Shown here piece by piece: positions 1-64,000 of a stretch of 64,000 nucleotides of DNA; within the stretch, counting starts at the first letter, position 1; each line of letters begins with the position of its first letter. The DNA is from Octopus sinensis. Its lineage: Eukaryota. A program made the position numbers. The stretch lies in assembly GCF_006345805.1 (NCBI RefSeq), contig NC_043013.1:19220001-19284000 (forward strand). Direction: 5' to 3'.

Positions 1-3000
1 TGTGGTTGTGGGTTCTGTTGTGGTTGTGGGTTCTGTTGTGGTCGTTGGTATTGTGGTTGTTAGTTCTGCTGTGGTTGTGGGTTCTGTTGTGGTTATTGGT
101 ATTGTTGTGGTCGTTGGTATTGTTGTGGTCGTTGGCATTGTTGTGGTTGTGGGTTCTGTTGTGGTTGTGGGTTCTGTTGTGGATGTTGGTATTGTTGTGG
201 TTGTTGCTTCTTTTGTGGCTGTTGGTATTGTGGTTGTTGGTGCTGTTGTGGTTGTGTGTTCTGTTGTGGTTGTTGGTATTGTTGTTGTCGTTGGTATTGT
301 TGTGGTCGTTGGTATTGTTGTTGTTGTGGGTTCCGTTGTGGTCGTTGTAATTGTGTTTGTGGGTCCTGTTGTGGTTGTGTGTTCTGTTGTGGTTGTTGGT
401 ATTGTTGTGGTTGTTGGTATTGTTGTGGATGTTGGTATTGTTGTGGTTGTTGGTATTGTTGTGGTTGTGGGTTCTGTTGTGGTTGTTGGTTCTGTTGTGG
501 TTGTTGGTACTGTTGTGGTTGTTGGTATTGTTGTGGTTGCTGGTTCTTTTGTGATTGTTGGTATTGTTTTGGTTTTCGGTTCTGTTGTGGTTGTTGGTAT
601 TGTTGTGGTTGTGGGTTCTGTTGTGGTTGTGGGTTCTGTTGTGGTTGTGGGTCCTGTTGTGGTTGTGGGTTCTGTTGTAGACTCTGGTTCTGTTGTGGAT
701 GTTGGTTCTTTTGTGGTTGTTCGTATTGTTGTGGTAGTTGATATTGTTGTGGTTGTGGGTTCTGTTGTGGTTGTGGGTTCTGTTGTGGTTGTTGGTATTG
801 TTGTGGTTGTTGGTATTGTTGTGGTTGTTGGTATTGTTGTGGTTGTTGGTTTTGTTGTAGTTGTTGGTTCTGTTGTGGTCGTGGGTTCTGTTGTGGTTGT
901 GGGTTCTGTTATGGTTGTTGGTATTTTTGTGGTTGTTGGTATTGTTATGGTTGTTGGTATTGTTGTGGTTGTTGCTTCTTTTGTGGTTGTTGGTATTGTG
1001 GTTGTTGGTTCTGTTGTGGCTTTTGTTTCTGTTGTGGTTATTGGCATTGTTGTCGTCATTGGTATTGTTGTGGGTTCTGTTGTGGTTGTGGGTTCCGTTG
1101 TGGTTGTTGTTTCTGTTGTGGTTGTTGCTTCTTTTGTGGCTGTTGATATTGTGGTTGTTGGTTCTGTTAATGTTGTGAGTTCTGTTGTGGTTGTGGGTTC
1201 TGTTGTGGTTGTTGGTATTGTTGTGGTTGTTGGTATTGTTGTGGTTGTTTGTATTGTTGTTGTTGCTTCTTTTGTGGTTGTTGGTATTGTGTTTGTTGGT
1301 TCTGTTGCGGTTGTGCGTTCTGTTGTTGTTAATGGTATTGTTGTGGTTGTGGTTTCTGTTGTGGTTGTGTATTCTGTTGTGGTTGTGGGTATTGGTGTGG
1401 TTGTTGGTATTGTTGTGGTTGTTGGTATTGTTGTGGTTGTTGGTATTGTTGTGGTTGCGGATTCTGTTGTGGTTGTGGGTTCTGTTGAGGTTGTTGGTAT
1501 TGTTGTGGTTTTTGGTATTGTTGTGGTGGTTGGTTCTGTTGTAGTCGTTGGTGTTGTGGTCGTAGGTTCTGTTGTGGTTGTGGGTTCTGTTGTTGTTGTT
1601 GGTATTGTTGTGGTCGTTGGTATTGTTGTGGTTGTGGGTTCTGTTGTTGTTTTGGGTTCTGTTGTGGTTGTGGGTTCTGTTATGGTTGTTGTTATTGTTG
1701 TGGATGTTAGTATTTTTGTGGTTGTTGGTATTGCTGTGGTTGTTGCTTCTTTTGTGGTTGTTGGTATTGTGGTTGTGTGTTCTGTTGTTGTTATTGGTAT
1801 TGTTGTGGTCGTTGGTATTGCTGTGGTCGTTGGCATTTTTGTGGTCGTTGATATTGTTGTGGTTGTGGGTTCTGTTGTGGTTGTGGGTTCTGTTGTGGTT
1901 GTGGGTTCTGTTGTGGTTGTTAGTATTGTTGTAGTTGTTGGTATTGTTCTGGTTGTTGCTTCTGTTGTGGTTGTGGGTTCTGTTGTGGTCGTTGGTATTG
2001 TTGGAGTCGTTGGAATTGTTGTGGTTGTATGTTCTGTTGTGGACGATTGTATTGTGGTTGTTAGTTCTGCTGTGGTTGTGGGTTCTGTTGTGGTTATTGG
2101 TATTGTTGTGGTCGTCGGCATTGTTGTGGTTGTGGCTGTGAGTTCTGTTGTGGTCGTTGGTATTGAGGTTGTTAGTTCTGCTGTGGTTGTGGGTTCTGTT
2201 GTGGTTATTGGTATTGTTGTGGACGTTGGTATTGTTGTGGTCGTTGGTATTGTTGTGGTTGTAGGTTCTGTTGTTGTTGTTGGTTCTGTTGTGGTTGTGG
2301 GTTCTGTTGTGGTTGTGGGTTCTGTTGTGGTCGTTGGTATTGTGGTTGTTAGTTCTGCTGTGGTTGTGGGTTCTGTTGTGGTTATTGGTATTGTTGTGGT
2401 CGTTGGTATTGTTGTGGTCGTTGGCATTGTTGTGGTTGTGGGTTCTGTTGTAGATGTTGGTATTGTTGTGGTTGTTGCTTCTTTTGTGGCTGTTGGTATT
2501 GTGGTTGTTGGTTCTGTTGTGGTTGTGGGTTCTGTTGTGGTTATTGGTATTGTTGTTGTCGTTGGTATTGTTGTGGTCGTTGGTATTGTTGTGGTCGTGG
2601 GTTCCGTTGTGGTCGTTGGTATTGTTGTGGTCGTTGGATTTGTGGTGGTTGTGGGTTCTGTTGTGGTTGTGTGTTCTGTTGTGGTTGTGTGTTCTGTTGT
2701 GGTTGTGTGTTCTGTTGTGGTTGTGTGTTCTGTTGTGGTTGTTGGTATTGTTGTGGTTGTTGGTATTGCTGTGGTTGTGGGTTCTGTTGTGGTTGTGGGT
2801 TCTGTTGTGGTTGTTGGCATTGTTGTGGTTGTTGGTATTGTTGTGGTTGTTGGTATTGTTGTGGTGGTTGGTATTGTTGTGGTTGTGGGTTCTGTTGTGG
2901 TTGTGGGTTCTGTTGTGGTTGTTGGTATTGTTGTGGTTGTTGGTATTGTTGTGGTTGTTGCTTTTGTTGTGGTTGTTGGTTCTGTTGTGGTTGTGGGTTC

Positions 3001-63000: not shown

Positions 63001-64000
63001 GTTGGTGTACTTTCTGATGTAGTTGCTAGTGTAGTAGTACTACCATCTGCTGTTGCTCTTGTTTGTAATGTAGTCGATGGTGTTGTACGGGTGCCTGTTG
63101 TAGTTTGTGATGTAGTTGTTAGTGTAGTAGGAAGGTTTGTTTTTGCTGTTGTCTGTGACGTAGTGTTTGCTGTAGCTATGGAGTCTTTTGTCACTGTAGT
63201 TCGTGATGTAGTTTTGACCGTTGTTGCTGTAGTTTGTGATGTAGTAGTGGGTGCAATTTTGGTTTGTGCTGTAGTTGTTTGTGTAGTAGTAGCTCCAGGT
63301 GTTGCTGCATTCTCTGGTATAGTTGTTTGTGTGGTAGTAGTGCCTTCTGTTGCTGCAGTTTGTGATGCAGTAGCTGGTTTAGTAGTGGTTCCTGCTGTTG
63401 CTGTAGTTTGTGGTGTAGTTTTGGTGACTCTTGTTGCTGTAGTTTGTGTTGTAGTTGTTGGTGTAGTAGTAGTAGCGCCTGTTGTTGCTGTAGTTTCTGG
63501 TGTAGGTGTGTGTGTGGCAGTAAAGCCTTCTGTTGCTGTAGTTTGTGGTGTAGTTGTTTGTGTAGTAGTATCTCCTGGTGTTGCTGTAGTTTCTGGTGTA
63601 GTTGTTTGTGTGATAGTAGTGTCCTCTGTTGCTGTGGTTTGTGATGTAGTTCCTGATTTAGTAGTGGTTCTTGCTGTTGCTGTAGTTTGTGGTGTAGTAG
63701 GTGTAGTTTCTGACGTAGAAACACCAGTTGTTGCTGTAGTTTGTGCTGTAGTTTCTGGTGTAGTAGTAGCGCCGGTTGTTATTGTAGCTTCTTGTGTAGT
63801 TGTTTGTGTGGTAGTAGTGCCTTCTGTTGCTGCAGTTTGTGATGTAGTAGCTGGTTTAGTAGTGGTTCCTGCTGTTGCTGTAGTCTCTGATGTAGTTTTG
63901 GTGATTGTTGTTGTTGTAGTTTGTGTTGTAGTTGTTGGCATTGTAGTTGCGCCTGTTGTTGCAGTAGTTTCTGGTGTAGTAGTAGCGCCGGTTGTTATTG

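What the first reader, a model, noticed from the sequence alone, without database searches (positions are those of the whole stretch)
1..63998. Titin-scale, apparently intronless mucin PTS domain (at least 64 kb, about 21,000 aa, both ends outside the window)
Seen: one Thr-rich minus-strand frame across the entire window, with no intron-like or intergenic break. I found no in-frame stop within the clean segments (up to 12 kb) and no Cys, Trp or folded domain. Established: gel-forming and tethered mucins encode PTS domains in single large exons, but the large human examples are far smaller (MUC16 exon 3 about 21-22 kb, largest TTN exon about 17 kb), and full-length titin is about 34-35k aa. Inference: this may be an exceptionally large coding exon and secreted or tethered glycoprotein, above 2 MDa before glycosylation and several micrometres long at about 0.25 nm per residue. 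Collapsing all frameshift-associated duplications (about 12 kb in total) still leaves about 52 kb, or about 17,000 aa.
Basis: partly seen in the sequence, partly recalled or inferred. Interest (0 to 1): 0.85.

Follow-up and report, generated by a model that had tools for sequence, protein, structure and literature searches.

The report
Giant threonine-rich mucin-type coding region
The whole 64 kb window looks like part of one enormous mucin-type (threonine/proline-rich, sugar-carrying) protein-coding region on the minus strand, comparable in size to the largest mucin genes reported, but its reading frame is broken many times in this assembly, probably by sequencing errors.

Summary
The core observation holds. 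All 64,000 bases carry a Thr-rich, period-3, coding-like signal on the minus strand. There is no intron-like or intergenic break, no Cys or Trp, and no Pfam domain, and both ends are open.

It is not one reading frame. Crossing the window without a stop needs at least 21 frame changes, and a codon model places about 64 (27-72 depending on penalty). The longest unbroken run is 3,994 codons.

None of the 64 changes falls in three unique spacers (17.0 kb), while 58 fall in three stretches dominated by tandem arrays. All 31 off-length repeat units are different from one another. I read this as unpolished long-read consensus error rather than gene decay, but that is inference.

Coding is well supported:
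- 0 stops in 2,567 unique-sequence codons, against 79 expected.
- 7 of 7 paralogue indels are multiples of 3, and dN/dS is 0.67.

No homologue, organism or flank could be found.

The scale has precedent. Passages of a 2026 preprint give human MUC12 alleles up to 23,080 aa. I classify this as a new, very large member of a known kind, with moderate interest.

The parts
1..64000 (-). Whole window: one continuous mucin-type PTS (Thr/Pro-rich) coding-like region, open at both ends. It is broken by frame changes: at least 21, about 64 by the codon model.
1..6950 (-). Tandem array of 18-nt (6-aa) units, read as P-T-T-T-T-(E/I). The C-terminal side runs off the window.
6951..9600 (-). Degenerate, largely unique PTS spacer. 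It lies inside a 2,782-codon stop-free Thr-frame run.
9601..19300 (-). Tandem array of 18-nt units in a 36/54-nt higher order (TEPIPT / TEQTTT / TEPATT types). 10 frame changes fall in 12,300-19,300.
19301..26750 (-). Mostly unique PTS spacer with 0 frame changes. It contains an internal duplication of about 1.2 kb (21525-22694 vs 21942-23156, offset 417 = 139 codons).
26751..33000 (-). Tandem array of 21-nt (7-aa) units of the E-P-T-T-T-T-T type. It carries 10 frame changes.
33001..41250 (-). Mostly unique PTS spacer with 0 frame changes. It holds the two paralogous modules and a short 27/51-nt sub-array at about 36.0-37.0 kb.
37173..37898 (-). Module copy 1 (242 aa), the least Thr-rich and most complex sequence. 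Predicted disordered.
34890..35666 (-). Module copy 2 (259 aa), 60 % identical to copy 1. All 7 nucleotide-level indels are multiples of 3, and dN/dS is 0.67.
41251..49800 (-). The most homogeneous array: 21-nt units in a 63-nt higher order (TEPTTTT / TEQITTT / TEKITTS). It has 38 frame changes, and the only 4 in-frame stops of the path also lie here. 31 of 240 units have off-length sizes, all 31 different from one another.
49801..51100 (-). Unique PTS spacer with 0 frame changes. A 1,178-codon stop-free run crosses it and joins the 7-aa array to the 16-aa array.
51101..64000 (-). Array of 48-nt (16-aa) units in a 144-nt higher order (T-T-S-Q-T-T-A-T-T-G/D-T-S-T-T-P-A type), with a unique insert at about 54.5-57.5 kb. 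Codon use differs here (Thr ACT 35 %). It has 5 frame changes. The N-terminal side runs off the window.

Best explanation
The window is an internal piece of one very large protein-coding region for a mucin-type PTS domain, read on the minus strand. It is most likely a single exon.

It is built from five blocks of short in-frame tandem repeats (6, 6/12, 7, 7 and 16 aa units). These are separated by five degenerate, largely unique Thr/Pro/Ser/Ala/Glu-rich spacers.

Inferred from what is established for mucin domains: the polypeptide enters the secretory pathway, its roughly 11,600 Thr/Ser are densely O-glycosylated, and the result is an extended, hydrated, acidic bottle-brush several micrometres long. 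Such a molecule would serve as a gel, lubricant, adhesive or barrier.

The arrays grew by unequal recombination or slippage in units of whole codons.

The many frame changes in this assembly are most likely residual single-base consensus errors. They sit where a long-read assembly cannot be polished, namely the most homogeneous arrays. They are probably not real mutations.

Shown here: the coding-type sequence structure, the composition, the continuity, the absence of domains, and the distribution of frame changes.

Inferred: translation, secretion, glycosylation, the single-exon status, and the error origin of the frame changes.
For: 1. Open frame far beyond chance. There are 0 stops in 2,567, 3,642, 4,414, 3,300, 1,856 and 1,395 codon segments, against shuffle means of 51-114. 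The other two frames of the same segments carry 13-239 stops.
2. Period-3 architecture. 25 of 26 TRF rows have periods that are multiples of 3. Spacing between repeat anchors is 0 mod 3 in 999 of 1,081, 1,112 of 1,206 and 1,169 of 1,235 cases.
3. Paralogue test. Two modules of about 250 aa differ by 7 nucleotide-level indels, all multiples of 3. dN/dS is 0.67 and there are no stops. Two further internal duplications have offsets of 417 and 357 nt, both multiples of 3.
4. Mucin composition. T 50.1, S 4.1 and P 10.4 %, with 0 Cys and 0 Trp in 21,332 codons.
5. Continuity. There is no T-rich or G+T-rich window. By the run and spacer bounds, stop-free Thr-frame runs cross the five main spacers.
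6. Strand. The minus strand needs at least 21 frame changes and the plus strand 46. The antisense Val-rich frame has 11 stops in 7,701 test codons against 0 in sense. Its near-openness matches codon-shuffle expectation in unique sequence: 2 vs 4.9 and 7 vs 8.9.
7. Frame changes look technical.
   - 0 of 64 lie in the three unique spacers 19,300-26,750, 33,000-41,250 and 49,800-51,100 (17.0 kb).
   - 58 of 64 lie in three stretches dominated by tandem arrays, 38 of them in the most homogeneous array.
   - 31 of 31 off-length units are different from one another, so none was propagated by array homogenisation.
   - 5 of 6 places inspected read as one base missing in a short same-base run, relative to neighbouring repeat copies.
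   - Only 4 in-frame stops occur on the whole path.
8. Precedent for such trouble. Passages of PMC13345508 report segmented VNTR exons on liftover and ORF loss from sequencing errors in mucin VNTRs.
Against: - In this assembly there is no single ORF. At least 21 frame changes are unavoidable, and no reads were available to show that they are errors.
- A density of 4.4 changes per kb in 41.25-49.8 kb is very high for a modern assembly. It could reflect real decay of that array.
- There is no transcript, peptide, signal peptide, start, stop or flanking domain.
- No homologue turned up in any search, so neither conservation nor the organism is known.
- dN/dS of 0.67 is only weak constraint.
- The assembled length of such arrays can be wrong in either direction.
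- The Viterbi model was trained on segments chosen because they were stop-free. The count of changes depends on the penalty (27-72).
Confidence: 0.65

Rival explanations
1. The frame changes are real. The locus is a giant mucin exon that is decaying, a non-functional allele, or a gene whose homogeneous arrays are no longer translated. At most the longest intact ORFs (up to 4,414 codons stop to stop) could be expressed.
For: - At least 21 unavoidable frame changes.
- 38 model-based changes and all 4 in-frame stops fall in one 8.5-kb array.
- dN/dS of 0.67 shows only weak constraint.
- Passages of PMC13345508 report that no complete ORF was found for human MUC19 in any of the long-read haplotypes examined. 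Broken giant mucin exons therefore do exist.
Against: - 0 of 64 changes lie in 17.0 kb of unique spacer, and only 1 in 1-12,300.
- There are 0 stops in 7,701 test codons. About a quarter of codons (E, Q, K, S) are one substitution away from a stop.
- 31 of 31 off-length units are different from one another, so none spread within the array.
- This pattern fits a polishing failure better than neutral decay. Neutral decay would hit unique and repeated parts alike.
Confidence: 0.2
2. The coding sequence is real but its size is an assembly artefact. The arrays would be over-expanded, or two or more mucin loci or haplotypes would have been joined, so the true exon is much shorter.
For: - Tandem arrays at 85-88 % self-identity over 8.5 kb are hard to assemble.
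- The same arrays show poor consensus quality.
Against: - 0 near-identical blocks of at least 400 nt at 93 % or more. Stuttered or double-placed segments would be expected to leave such blocks.
- By the run and spacer bounds, each of the five main spacers lies inside one stop-free Thr-frame run that reaches its neighbouring arrays.
- Excluding the three most error-laden stretches entirely (12.3-19.3, 26.75-33 and 41.25-49.8 kb, 21.8 kb in total) still leaves about 42 kb.
Confidence: 0.1
3. It is non-coding: an A/C-rich satellite, or the real gene lies on the plus strand (Val/Gly/Ser/Cys-rich ORFs of up to 2,140 aa). Under this reading the long ORFs follow merely from a strand that lacks T (or A).
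For: - The minus strand has only 7.4 % T, so stops are rare in all frames.
- Plus-strand ORFs are also long.
- The wobble base of the ACN frame is shared with the antisense GTN frame.
Against: - Shuffles with the same composition still give 51-114 stops where 0 are seen.
- The other minus frames of the same segments carry 13-239 stops.
- Indels between paralogues are 7 of 7 multiples of 3.
- The antisense frame has 11 stops in 7,701 codons, and the plus strand needs 46 frame changes against 21.
- The openness of the antisense frame matches codon-shuffle expectation in unique sequence.
- Pfam gave 0 families for 5 of 5 plus-strand ORFs.
- From my own knowledge, no known protein class is 45-60 % Val.
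Confidence: 0.03

Closest known systems
Human MUC12 central VNTR exon (tethered mucin), longest alleles
   Same: It is a giant PTS/VNTR coding region in one exon. [quoted passage not shown] That is the same order of size as the 21,332 codons here.
   Different: - No sequence comparison was made, and no human sequence was fetched.
- As I recall them, the MUC12 repeat units are longer and Ser/His/Gly/Leu-containing, unlike the 6-16 aa Thr/Glu/Pro/Ile units here.
- MUC12 has SEA/EGF/TM parts. None is inside this window, and the flanks are unknown.
- The source organism here is unknown, and I do not take the window for human.
Drosophila melanogaster Mucin 14A (Muc14A, CG32580)
   Same: It is a very large mucin with extended tandem repeats in its coding sequence. 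The gene spans 52.6 kb (passage of bioRxiv 10.1101/834630). It is described as the largest Drosophila mucin, approaching human MUC16 in length (passage of PMC2515642).
   Different: - Muc14A harbours Cys-rich EGF-like stretches. This window has 0 Cys in 21,332 codons.
- Its repeat spacing was given as 271 nt, against 18-48 nt units here.
- The window alone is already longer than the whole Muc14A gene.
- The exact protein length is in a supplement I could not open.
Gel-forming mucins (MUC2 / MUC5AC / MUC5B / MUC6 / MUC19 type)
   Same: They have a central Thr/Ser/Pro-rich, O-glycosylated domain of degenerate tandem repeats encoded by one large exon (abstracts of PMC13345508 and PMC11344006).
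   Different: - From my own knowledge, their PTS regions are interrupted by Cys-rich CysD domains and flanked by VWD-C8-TIL and cystine-knot domains.
- No Cys and no Pfam domain occurs in 64 kb here.
- The flanks could not be tested.
Spider aggregate-gland glue spidroin AgSp1 (Argiope trifasciata)
   Same: It is a huge repetitive secreted O-glycoprotein. The coding sequence is 42,270 bp in two similarly sized exons. It had to be resolved by correcting error-prone long reads with short reads (passages of PMC6553539).
   Different: - AgSp1 repeats are Gly/Pro-rich (GPXG, QGP, PGG) with S+T of 17.8 %.
- Here G is 1.1 % and S+T is 54 %.
- No spidroin terminal domain was found in the window.

Membership tests
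Mucin-domain (PTS) protein, operational definition | A long region rich in Thr/Ser with Pro, made largely of poorly conserved tandem repeats | tested here: met
   T 50.1, S 4.1 and P 10.4 % over 21,332 codons. Five blocks of in-frame tandem arrays. The Drosophila screen in PMC2515642 used more than 25 % S+T and at least 4 repeats (passage).
Mucin-domain (PTS) protein, operational definition | The PTS domain is encoded by one large uninterrupted exon | tested here: inconclusive
   There is no intron-like composition break, and stop-free Thr-frame runs cross the main spacers (bounds). However, at least 21 frame changes interrupt the ORF. No transcript data or exon bounds were available.
Mucin-domain (PTS) protein, operational definition | Dense O-glycosylation of Thr/Ser; secretion or membrane tethering (signal peptide, TM) | not testable with these tools
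   Both ends of the coding region lie outside the window. No tool gives glycosylation or expression.
Gel-forming mucins (VWF-like) | Cys-rich CysD domains within the PTS region; VWD-C8-TIL at the N-terminus and a cystine knot at the C-terminus | tested here: not met
   Inside the window there are 0 Cys and 0 Pfam families in 9 of 9 ORFs. The terminal domains lie outside the window if they exist, so that half of the feature was not testable.
SEA-type tethered mucins (MUC1/3/12/13/16/17 type) | SEA and/or EGF modules and a transmembrane helix C-terminal to the PTS domain | not testable with these tools
   None is inside the window. The modules of about 250 aa are predicted disordered, with mean pLDDT 33.9. 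The C-terminal flank (before base 1) is not available.
Spider aggregate spidroins | Gly/Pro-rich repeat motifs and spidroin N- and C-terminal domains | tested here: not met
   G is 1.1 %. There is no Pfam hit. The comparison values come from passages of PMC6553539.
Non-coding A/C-rich satellite DNA | No frame preference: stops and indels spread evenly over the three frames | tested here: not met
   0 vs 139 and 39 stops by frame in 2,567 unique codons. 7 of 7 paralogue indels are multiples of 3. 92-95 % of anchor spacings are 0 mod 3.

The most novel reading that the evidence does not exclude
If the frame changes are assembly errors and the assembled length is right, this is a single uninterrupted coding exon of more than 64 kb. 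It would encode more than 21,300 residues of pure mucin domain without one Cys or folded module, with both ends still beyond the window. That would equal or exceed the longest human MUC12 alleles and every other mucin exon I found in print. With its flanks it could rival titin as one of the longest polypeptides of any animal or other eukaryote. It would belong to a lineage-specific mucin with no detectable relative among 1.84 billion representative proteins.
Probability: 0.3. Interest if true: 0.65.

Novelty: new member of a known kind. Interest (0 to 1): 0.4.

Why it matters
If the locus is real at this length, it sits at or beyond the upper limit reported for coding exons and for mucin domains. 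It would also show that the giant size recently described for human MUC12 is not confined to one lineage.

The locus is a clean natural example of how a PTS domain is built. Five different short repeat families were each amplified from their own founder unit, with their own codon usage. They are joined by old, degenerate spacers that still keep the frame.

There is a practical lesson too. Such loci are where long-read assemblies keep single-base errors. Gene predictors will therefore shatter them into many 'hypothetical proteins' or miss them altogether. That bears on any census of mucins or of giant proteins.

Tried and rejected
HOMOLOGY AND IDENTITY (all negative)
- The search for homologous proteins found nothing at E <= 0.001 in three runs:
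  - 23107-26109(-), near lengths.
  - 29919-43160(-), region 1755-2757, near lengths.
  - 34890-37898(-), longer lengths.
- Exhaustive HMMER of 34890-37898(-) against 1.84 billion representatives gave 1 hit at E = 6e-4. Its matched part is only a Thr-rich linker in an otherwise unrelated 671-aa protein, so I rejected it as compositional.
- The ESM Atlas gave a best score of 0.77, below any useful level.
- PDB sequences gave 0 hits.
- Rfam gave 0 hits and tRNA search gave 0.

PROKARYOTIC ORIGIN (rejected)
- An exact 41-mer scan of genome contigs found 0 matches.
- A protein-pattern scan produced 93 pattern matches, of which 0 were confirmed.

STRUCTURE
- AlphaFold2 on the two-module alignment gave mean pLDDT 33.9 and no secondary structure. 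This fits disorder, but the alignment has only 2 rows, so it is weak evidence. I ran no fold search on such a model.

DUPLICATIONS
- The repeat finder on the whole window returned only array families and was not informative.
I replaced it with a BLAST restricted to the spacers.

LITERATURE
- The repeat motifs typed as words gave 0 papers.
- I found no paper describing a mucin exon longer than the MUC12 case.

REJECTED READINGS
- Plus-strand Val-rich protein.
- Non-coding satellite.
- Short introns at the frame changes. In the 6 places read the changes lie inside repeat units, and no window has intron-like composition.

STAYED UNCHECKED
- The closed collections metagenome contigs and viral contigs.
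- Any eukaryotic genome collection (none is on hand), and therefore the flanks and the organism.
- Supplementary tables of PMC2515642 (Muc14A length) and PMC13345508 (MUC12 exon lengths).
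Full report
**What is in the sequence**

The window has no N. It is extremely strand-asymmetric: the minus strand is A 51.0, C 32.9, G 8.7 and T 7.4 %. The skew keeps the same sign in all 32 of 32 2-kb windows, and GC stays at 0.40-0.44.

Read on the minus strand, the window is a run of ACN-rich codons. Examples are TTTEPTTTTIPTTTT at the low-coordinate end and TTSQTTATTGTSTTPA at the high-coordinate end.

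A three-frame codon model followed the Thr-rich frame across the whole window. It was trained on the long clean segments against their own off-frames. The path covers 21,332 codons:
- T 50.1, P 10.4, E 8.9, A 6.2, I 5.8 and S 4.1 %.
- 0 Cys, 0 Trp and 4 stops.

As assembled, this amounts to 2.23 MDa of peptide, 11,568 Ser+Thr, and a net backbone charge of about -1,080.

**Is it coding, and on which strand?**

A strand with 7 % T has few stops in any frame, so ORF length alone proves little. I therefore ran four tests.

1. Stops against shuffles.
   - In the unique stretch 19300-27000 the Thr frame has 0 stops in 2,567 codons. The other two minus frames have 139 and 39. 200 mononucleotide shuffles gave a mean of 79.3 and a minimum of 55.
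   - Five further segments of 1,395-4,414 codons also have 0 stops, against shuffle means of 51-114.
   - The segments were chosen as stop-free, which biases the test. The margin is nevertheless overwhelming.
2. Period 3.
   - 25 of 26 Tandem Repeats Finder rows have periods that are multiples of 3; the exception is 263.
   - Spacing between successive repeat anchors is 0 mod 3 in 999 of 1,081, 1,112 of 1,206 and 1,169 of 1,235 cases for three anchors.
3. Paralogues.
   - The spacer at 33-41 kb holds two diverged copies of a module of about 250 aa: 37173-37898 and 34890-35666. They are 60 % identical.
   - A nucleotide alignment made without reference to the protein has 7 gaps of 3, 3, 21, 3, 21, 3 and 3 nt. 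All are multiples of 3.
   - dN/dS is 0.67 over 241 codons. Differences by codon position are 54, 47 and 66.
   - Two more internal duplications have offsets of 417 and 357 nt, both multiples of 3.
4. Strand.
   - The antisense GTN (Val-rich) frame shares its wobble base with the ACN frame and is nearly open. In unique sequence this matches what codon shuffling of the sense frame predicts: 2 observed vs 4.9 +/- 2.1, and 7 vs 8.9 +/- 2.6.
   - In the repeated 49.9-57.3 kb part it has fewer stops than shuffling predicts: 1 vs 11.6 and 1 vs 19.1. Codon pairs are not independent in repeats, so I give this little weight.
   - Over the four test segments the antisense frame has 11 stops in 7,701 codons and the sense frame has 0.
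   - Crossing the window without a stop takes at least 21 frame changes on the minus strand, 46 on the plus strand, and about 358 in shuffles.

I conclude that this is a protein-coding type of sequence on the minus strand.

**Architecture**

Reading from 64000 down to 1, the order is:
- A 16-aa (48/144-nt) array at 64.0-51.1 kb, with a unique insert at about 57.5-54.5 kb.
- A unique spacer at 51.1-49.8 kb.
- A very homogeneous 7-aa (21/63-nt) array at 49.8-41.25 kb.
- A long, mostly unique spacer at 41.25-33.0 kb, carrying the two modules and a short sub-array.
- A second 7-aa array at 33.0-26.75 kb.
- A second long spacer at 26.75-19.3 kb.
- An array of 6-aa units in a 12/18-aa higher order at 19.3-9.6 kb.
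- A spacer at 9.6-6.95 kb.
- A 6-aa array from 6.95 kb to base 1.

By the run bounds and the repeat map, a stop-free Thr-frame run crosses each of the five main spacers. For example, 49304-52837 joins the 7-aa and 16-aa arrays. Nothing therefore suggests two genes.

No 60-nt window has more than 33 % T on the coding strand, so nothing resembles an intron or an intergenic gap.

Evidence against any folded domain:
- Pfam finds nothing in 9 of 9 minus-strand ORFs that together cover most of the window.
- Pfam also finds nothing in 5 of 5 plus-strand ORFs.
- PDB sequences give 0 hits.
- The most complex part, the module, is predicted without structure: mean pLDDT 33.9 from a two-row alignment. That is weak evidence.

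**The frame is not continuous**

This is the main correction to the finding.
- Each single minus frame has 181-429 stops over the window.
- At least 21 frame changes are unavoidable.
- The codon model places 64, or 27-72 across penalties of 50 down to 8. Of the 64, 40 are of the minus-one class and 24 of the plus-one class.
- The longest unbroken Thr-frame runs are 3,994, 3,232, 2,782, 1,708, 1,329, 1,241 and 1,178 codons. Ten runs of at least 500 codons hold 17,327 of the 21,332 codons.

The changes are very unevenly spread:

| Stretch (bases) | Frame changes |
|---|---|
| Three unique spacers, 17.0 kb in total | 0 |
| 1-12,300 | 1 |
| 51,100-64,000 | 5 |
| 12,300-19,300 | 10 |
| 26,750-33,000 | 10 |
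| 41,250-49,800 | 38 |

In the last array, 31 of 240 anchor-delimited units have lengths not divisible by 3. All 31 are different from one another. No frameshifted unit has therefore been copied, although the array is otherwise being homogenised.

I inspected six places. Five read as one base missing in a short same-base run, relative to neighbouring repeat copies. The sixth has several changes close together that I could not resolve.

Along the whole path there are only 4 in-frame stops, all in one short run inside the noisiest array.

My reading is inference. These are residual single-base consensus errors of a long-read assembly, left in the stretches that cannot be polished because reads map ambiguously. 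Neutral decay of a dead gene should also have hit the 17 kb of unique spacer, and should have produced stops. Passages of PMC13345508 describe the same practical problem for human mucin VNTR exons. Without reads I cannot exclude that some or all of the changes are real.

I could not reproduce 'about 12 kb of frameshift-associated duplications'.
- Self-BLAST gave 0 pairs of at least 400 nt at 93 % identity or more.
- At 88 % identity it gave the 41.2-49.8 kb array aligning to itself at several offsets, one exact 162-nt repeat and one 114-nt match at 93.9 %.

**Relatives and origin**

Nothing related was found:
- Three word-indexed protein searches.
- One exhaustive HMMER search of 1.84 billion representatives. 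It returned 1 compositional hit at E = 6e-4.
- The ESM Atlas.
- An exact-word scan and a protein-pattern scan of 185,579 prokaryotic species genomes. These gave 0 matches and 0 of 93 candidates confirmed.

PTS domains evolve fast, and the libraries are mainly microbial, so this says little about novelty. The organism remains unknown. A CpG observed/expected ratio of 0.42 hints at a CpG-methylating eukaryote, no more.

I do not take the window for human. No comparison with human sequence was made. The flanks therefore stayed unchecked.

**How it most likely works**

The mechanism is inferred from what is established for mucin domains. I take the window to be an internal part of a secreted or tethered mucin-type glycoprotein. 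After entry into the secretory pathway, its Thr/Ser (54 % of residues) with interspersed Pro would be densely O-glycosylated. This would stiffen the chain into an extended, hydrated bottle-brush. The 9 % Glu adds negative charge to the backbone itself.

The absence of Cys over 21,000 residues means that any polymerisation or anchoring must come from domains outside the window.

The arrays differ in unit length and even in Thr codon choice:
- ACT makes up 35 % of Thr codons in the 16-aa array.
- ACT makes up 1-9 % in six of the other seven segments, and 16 % in the 49.8-51.1 kb spacer.

This fits separate amplifications from separate founder units by unequal exchange in whole-codon steps.

**Comparison with what is known**

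- Passages of a 2026 medRxiv preprint (PMC13345508) report human MUC12 haplotypes predicting 4,677 to 23,080 aa. [quoted passage not shown]
- Drosophila Muc14A spans 52.6 kb (passage of bioRxiv 10.1101/834630). It contains Cys-rich EGF-like stretches (passage of PMC2515642).
- Spider AgSp1 has a 42,270-bp coding sequence in two exons (passages of PMC6553539).

The present region meets the operational definition of a mucin domain. It fails the in-window features of gel-forming mucins (no CysD) and of spidroins (G 1.1 %). Its terminal domains cannot be tested.

It is therefore a new and very large member of a known kind. With both ends outside the window it may exceed every published case, but that rests on the assembly.

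My literature searches found no longer mucin exon and no paper containing its repeat motifs. Subscription journals and supplements were not covered.

**Verdict**

The feature is real, and coding-type sequence is well supported. 'Single frame' is not confirmed, and 'unprecedented scale' is no longer true. The single-exon and full-length claims await reads, transcripts and flanks. Interest is 0.4.

Noticed in passing
window 1-162 and 2290-2451: An exact 162-nt repeat (100 % identity, offset 2,289 = 763 codons) sits inside an array whose copies are otherwise about 70-88 % alike. The left copy is cut by the window start, so the duplication may be longer.
   Followed up: no
window 51100-64000 compared with 1-51100: Thr codon choice differs between arrays. 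ACT is 35 % of Thr codons in the 16-aa array, 1-9 % in six of the other seven segments and 16 % in the 49.8-51.1 kb spacer. The AT skew drops from about -0.9 to -0.5. This suggests each array inherited the codons of its founder unit rather than a common translational preference.
   Followed up: partly
window, plus strand, e.g. 29308-35727, 3406-8268, 18743-23593: There are very long antisense ORFs (up to 2,140 aa, 45-60 % Val) opposite the Thr frame. Codon shuffling shows they are a by-product of ACN-rich sense codons in unique sequence, and Pfam finds nothing in them. Gene finders could mis-call them.
   Followed up: yes
window 18631-29556 (minus), inside the 7-aa array part: Because T is so rare, the off-frames of the arrays (Asn/His/Arg-rich and Gln/Pro-rich) also stay open for hundreds of codons. 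Some frame changes therefore do not end the ORF. That is why the model counts 64 changes while only 21 are unavoidable. A real frameshift here would give a long altered tail rather than prompt truncation.
   Followed up: partly
window 37173-37898 and 34890-35666: Two diverged modules of about 250 aa, less Thr-rich, both end in an E-L-G-K motif. They are the only part of the window complex enough to serve as a probe for orthologues or peptides. No relative was found.
   Followed up: yes
whole window: The CpG observed/expected ratio is 0.42, while GpC is 0.92. This hints that the source genome methylates CpG. It may be confounded by codon choice.
   Followed up: no
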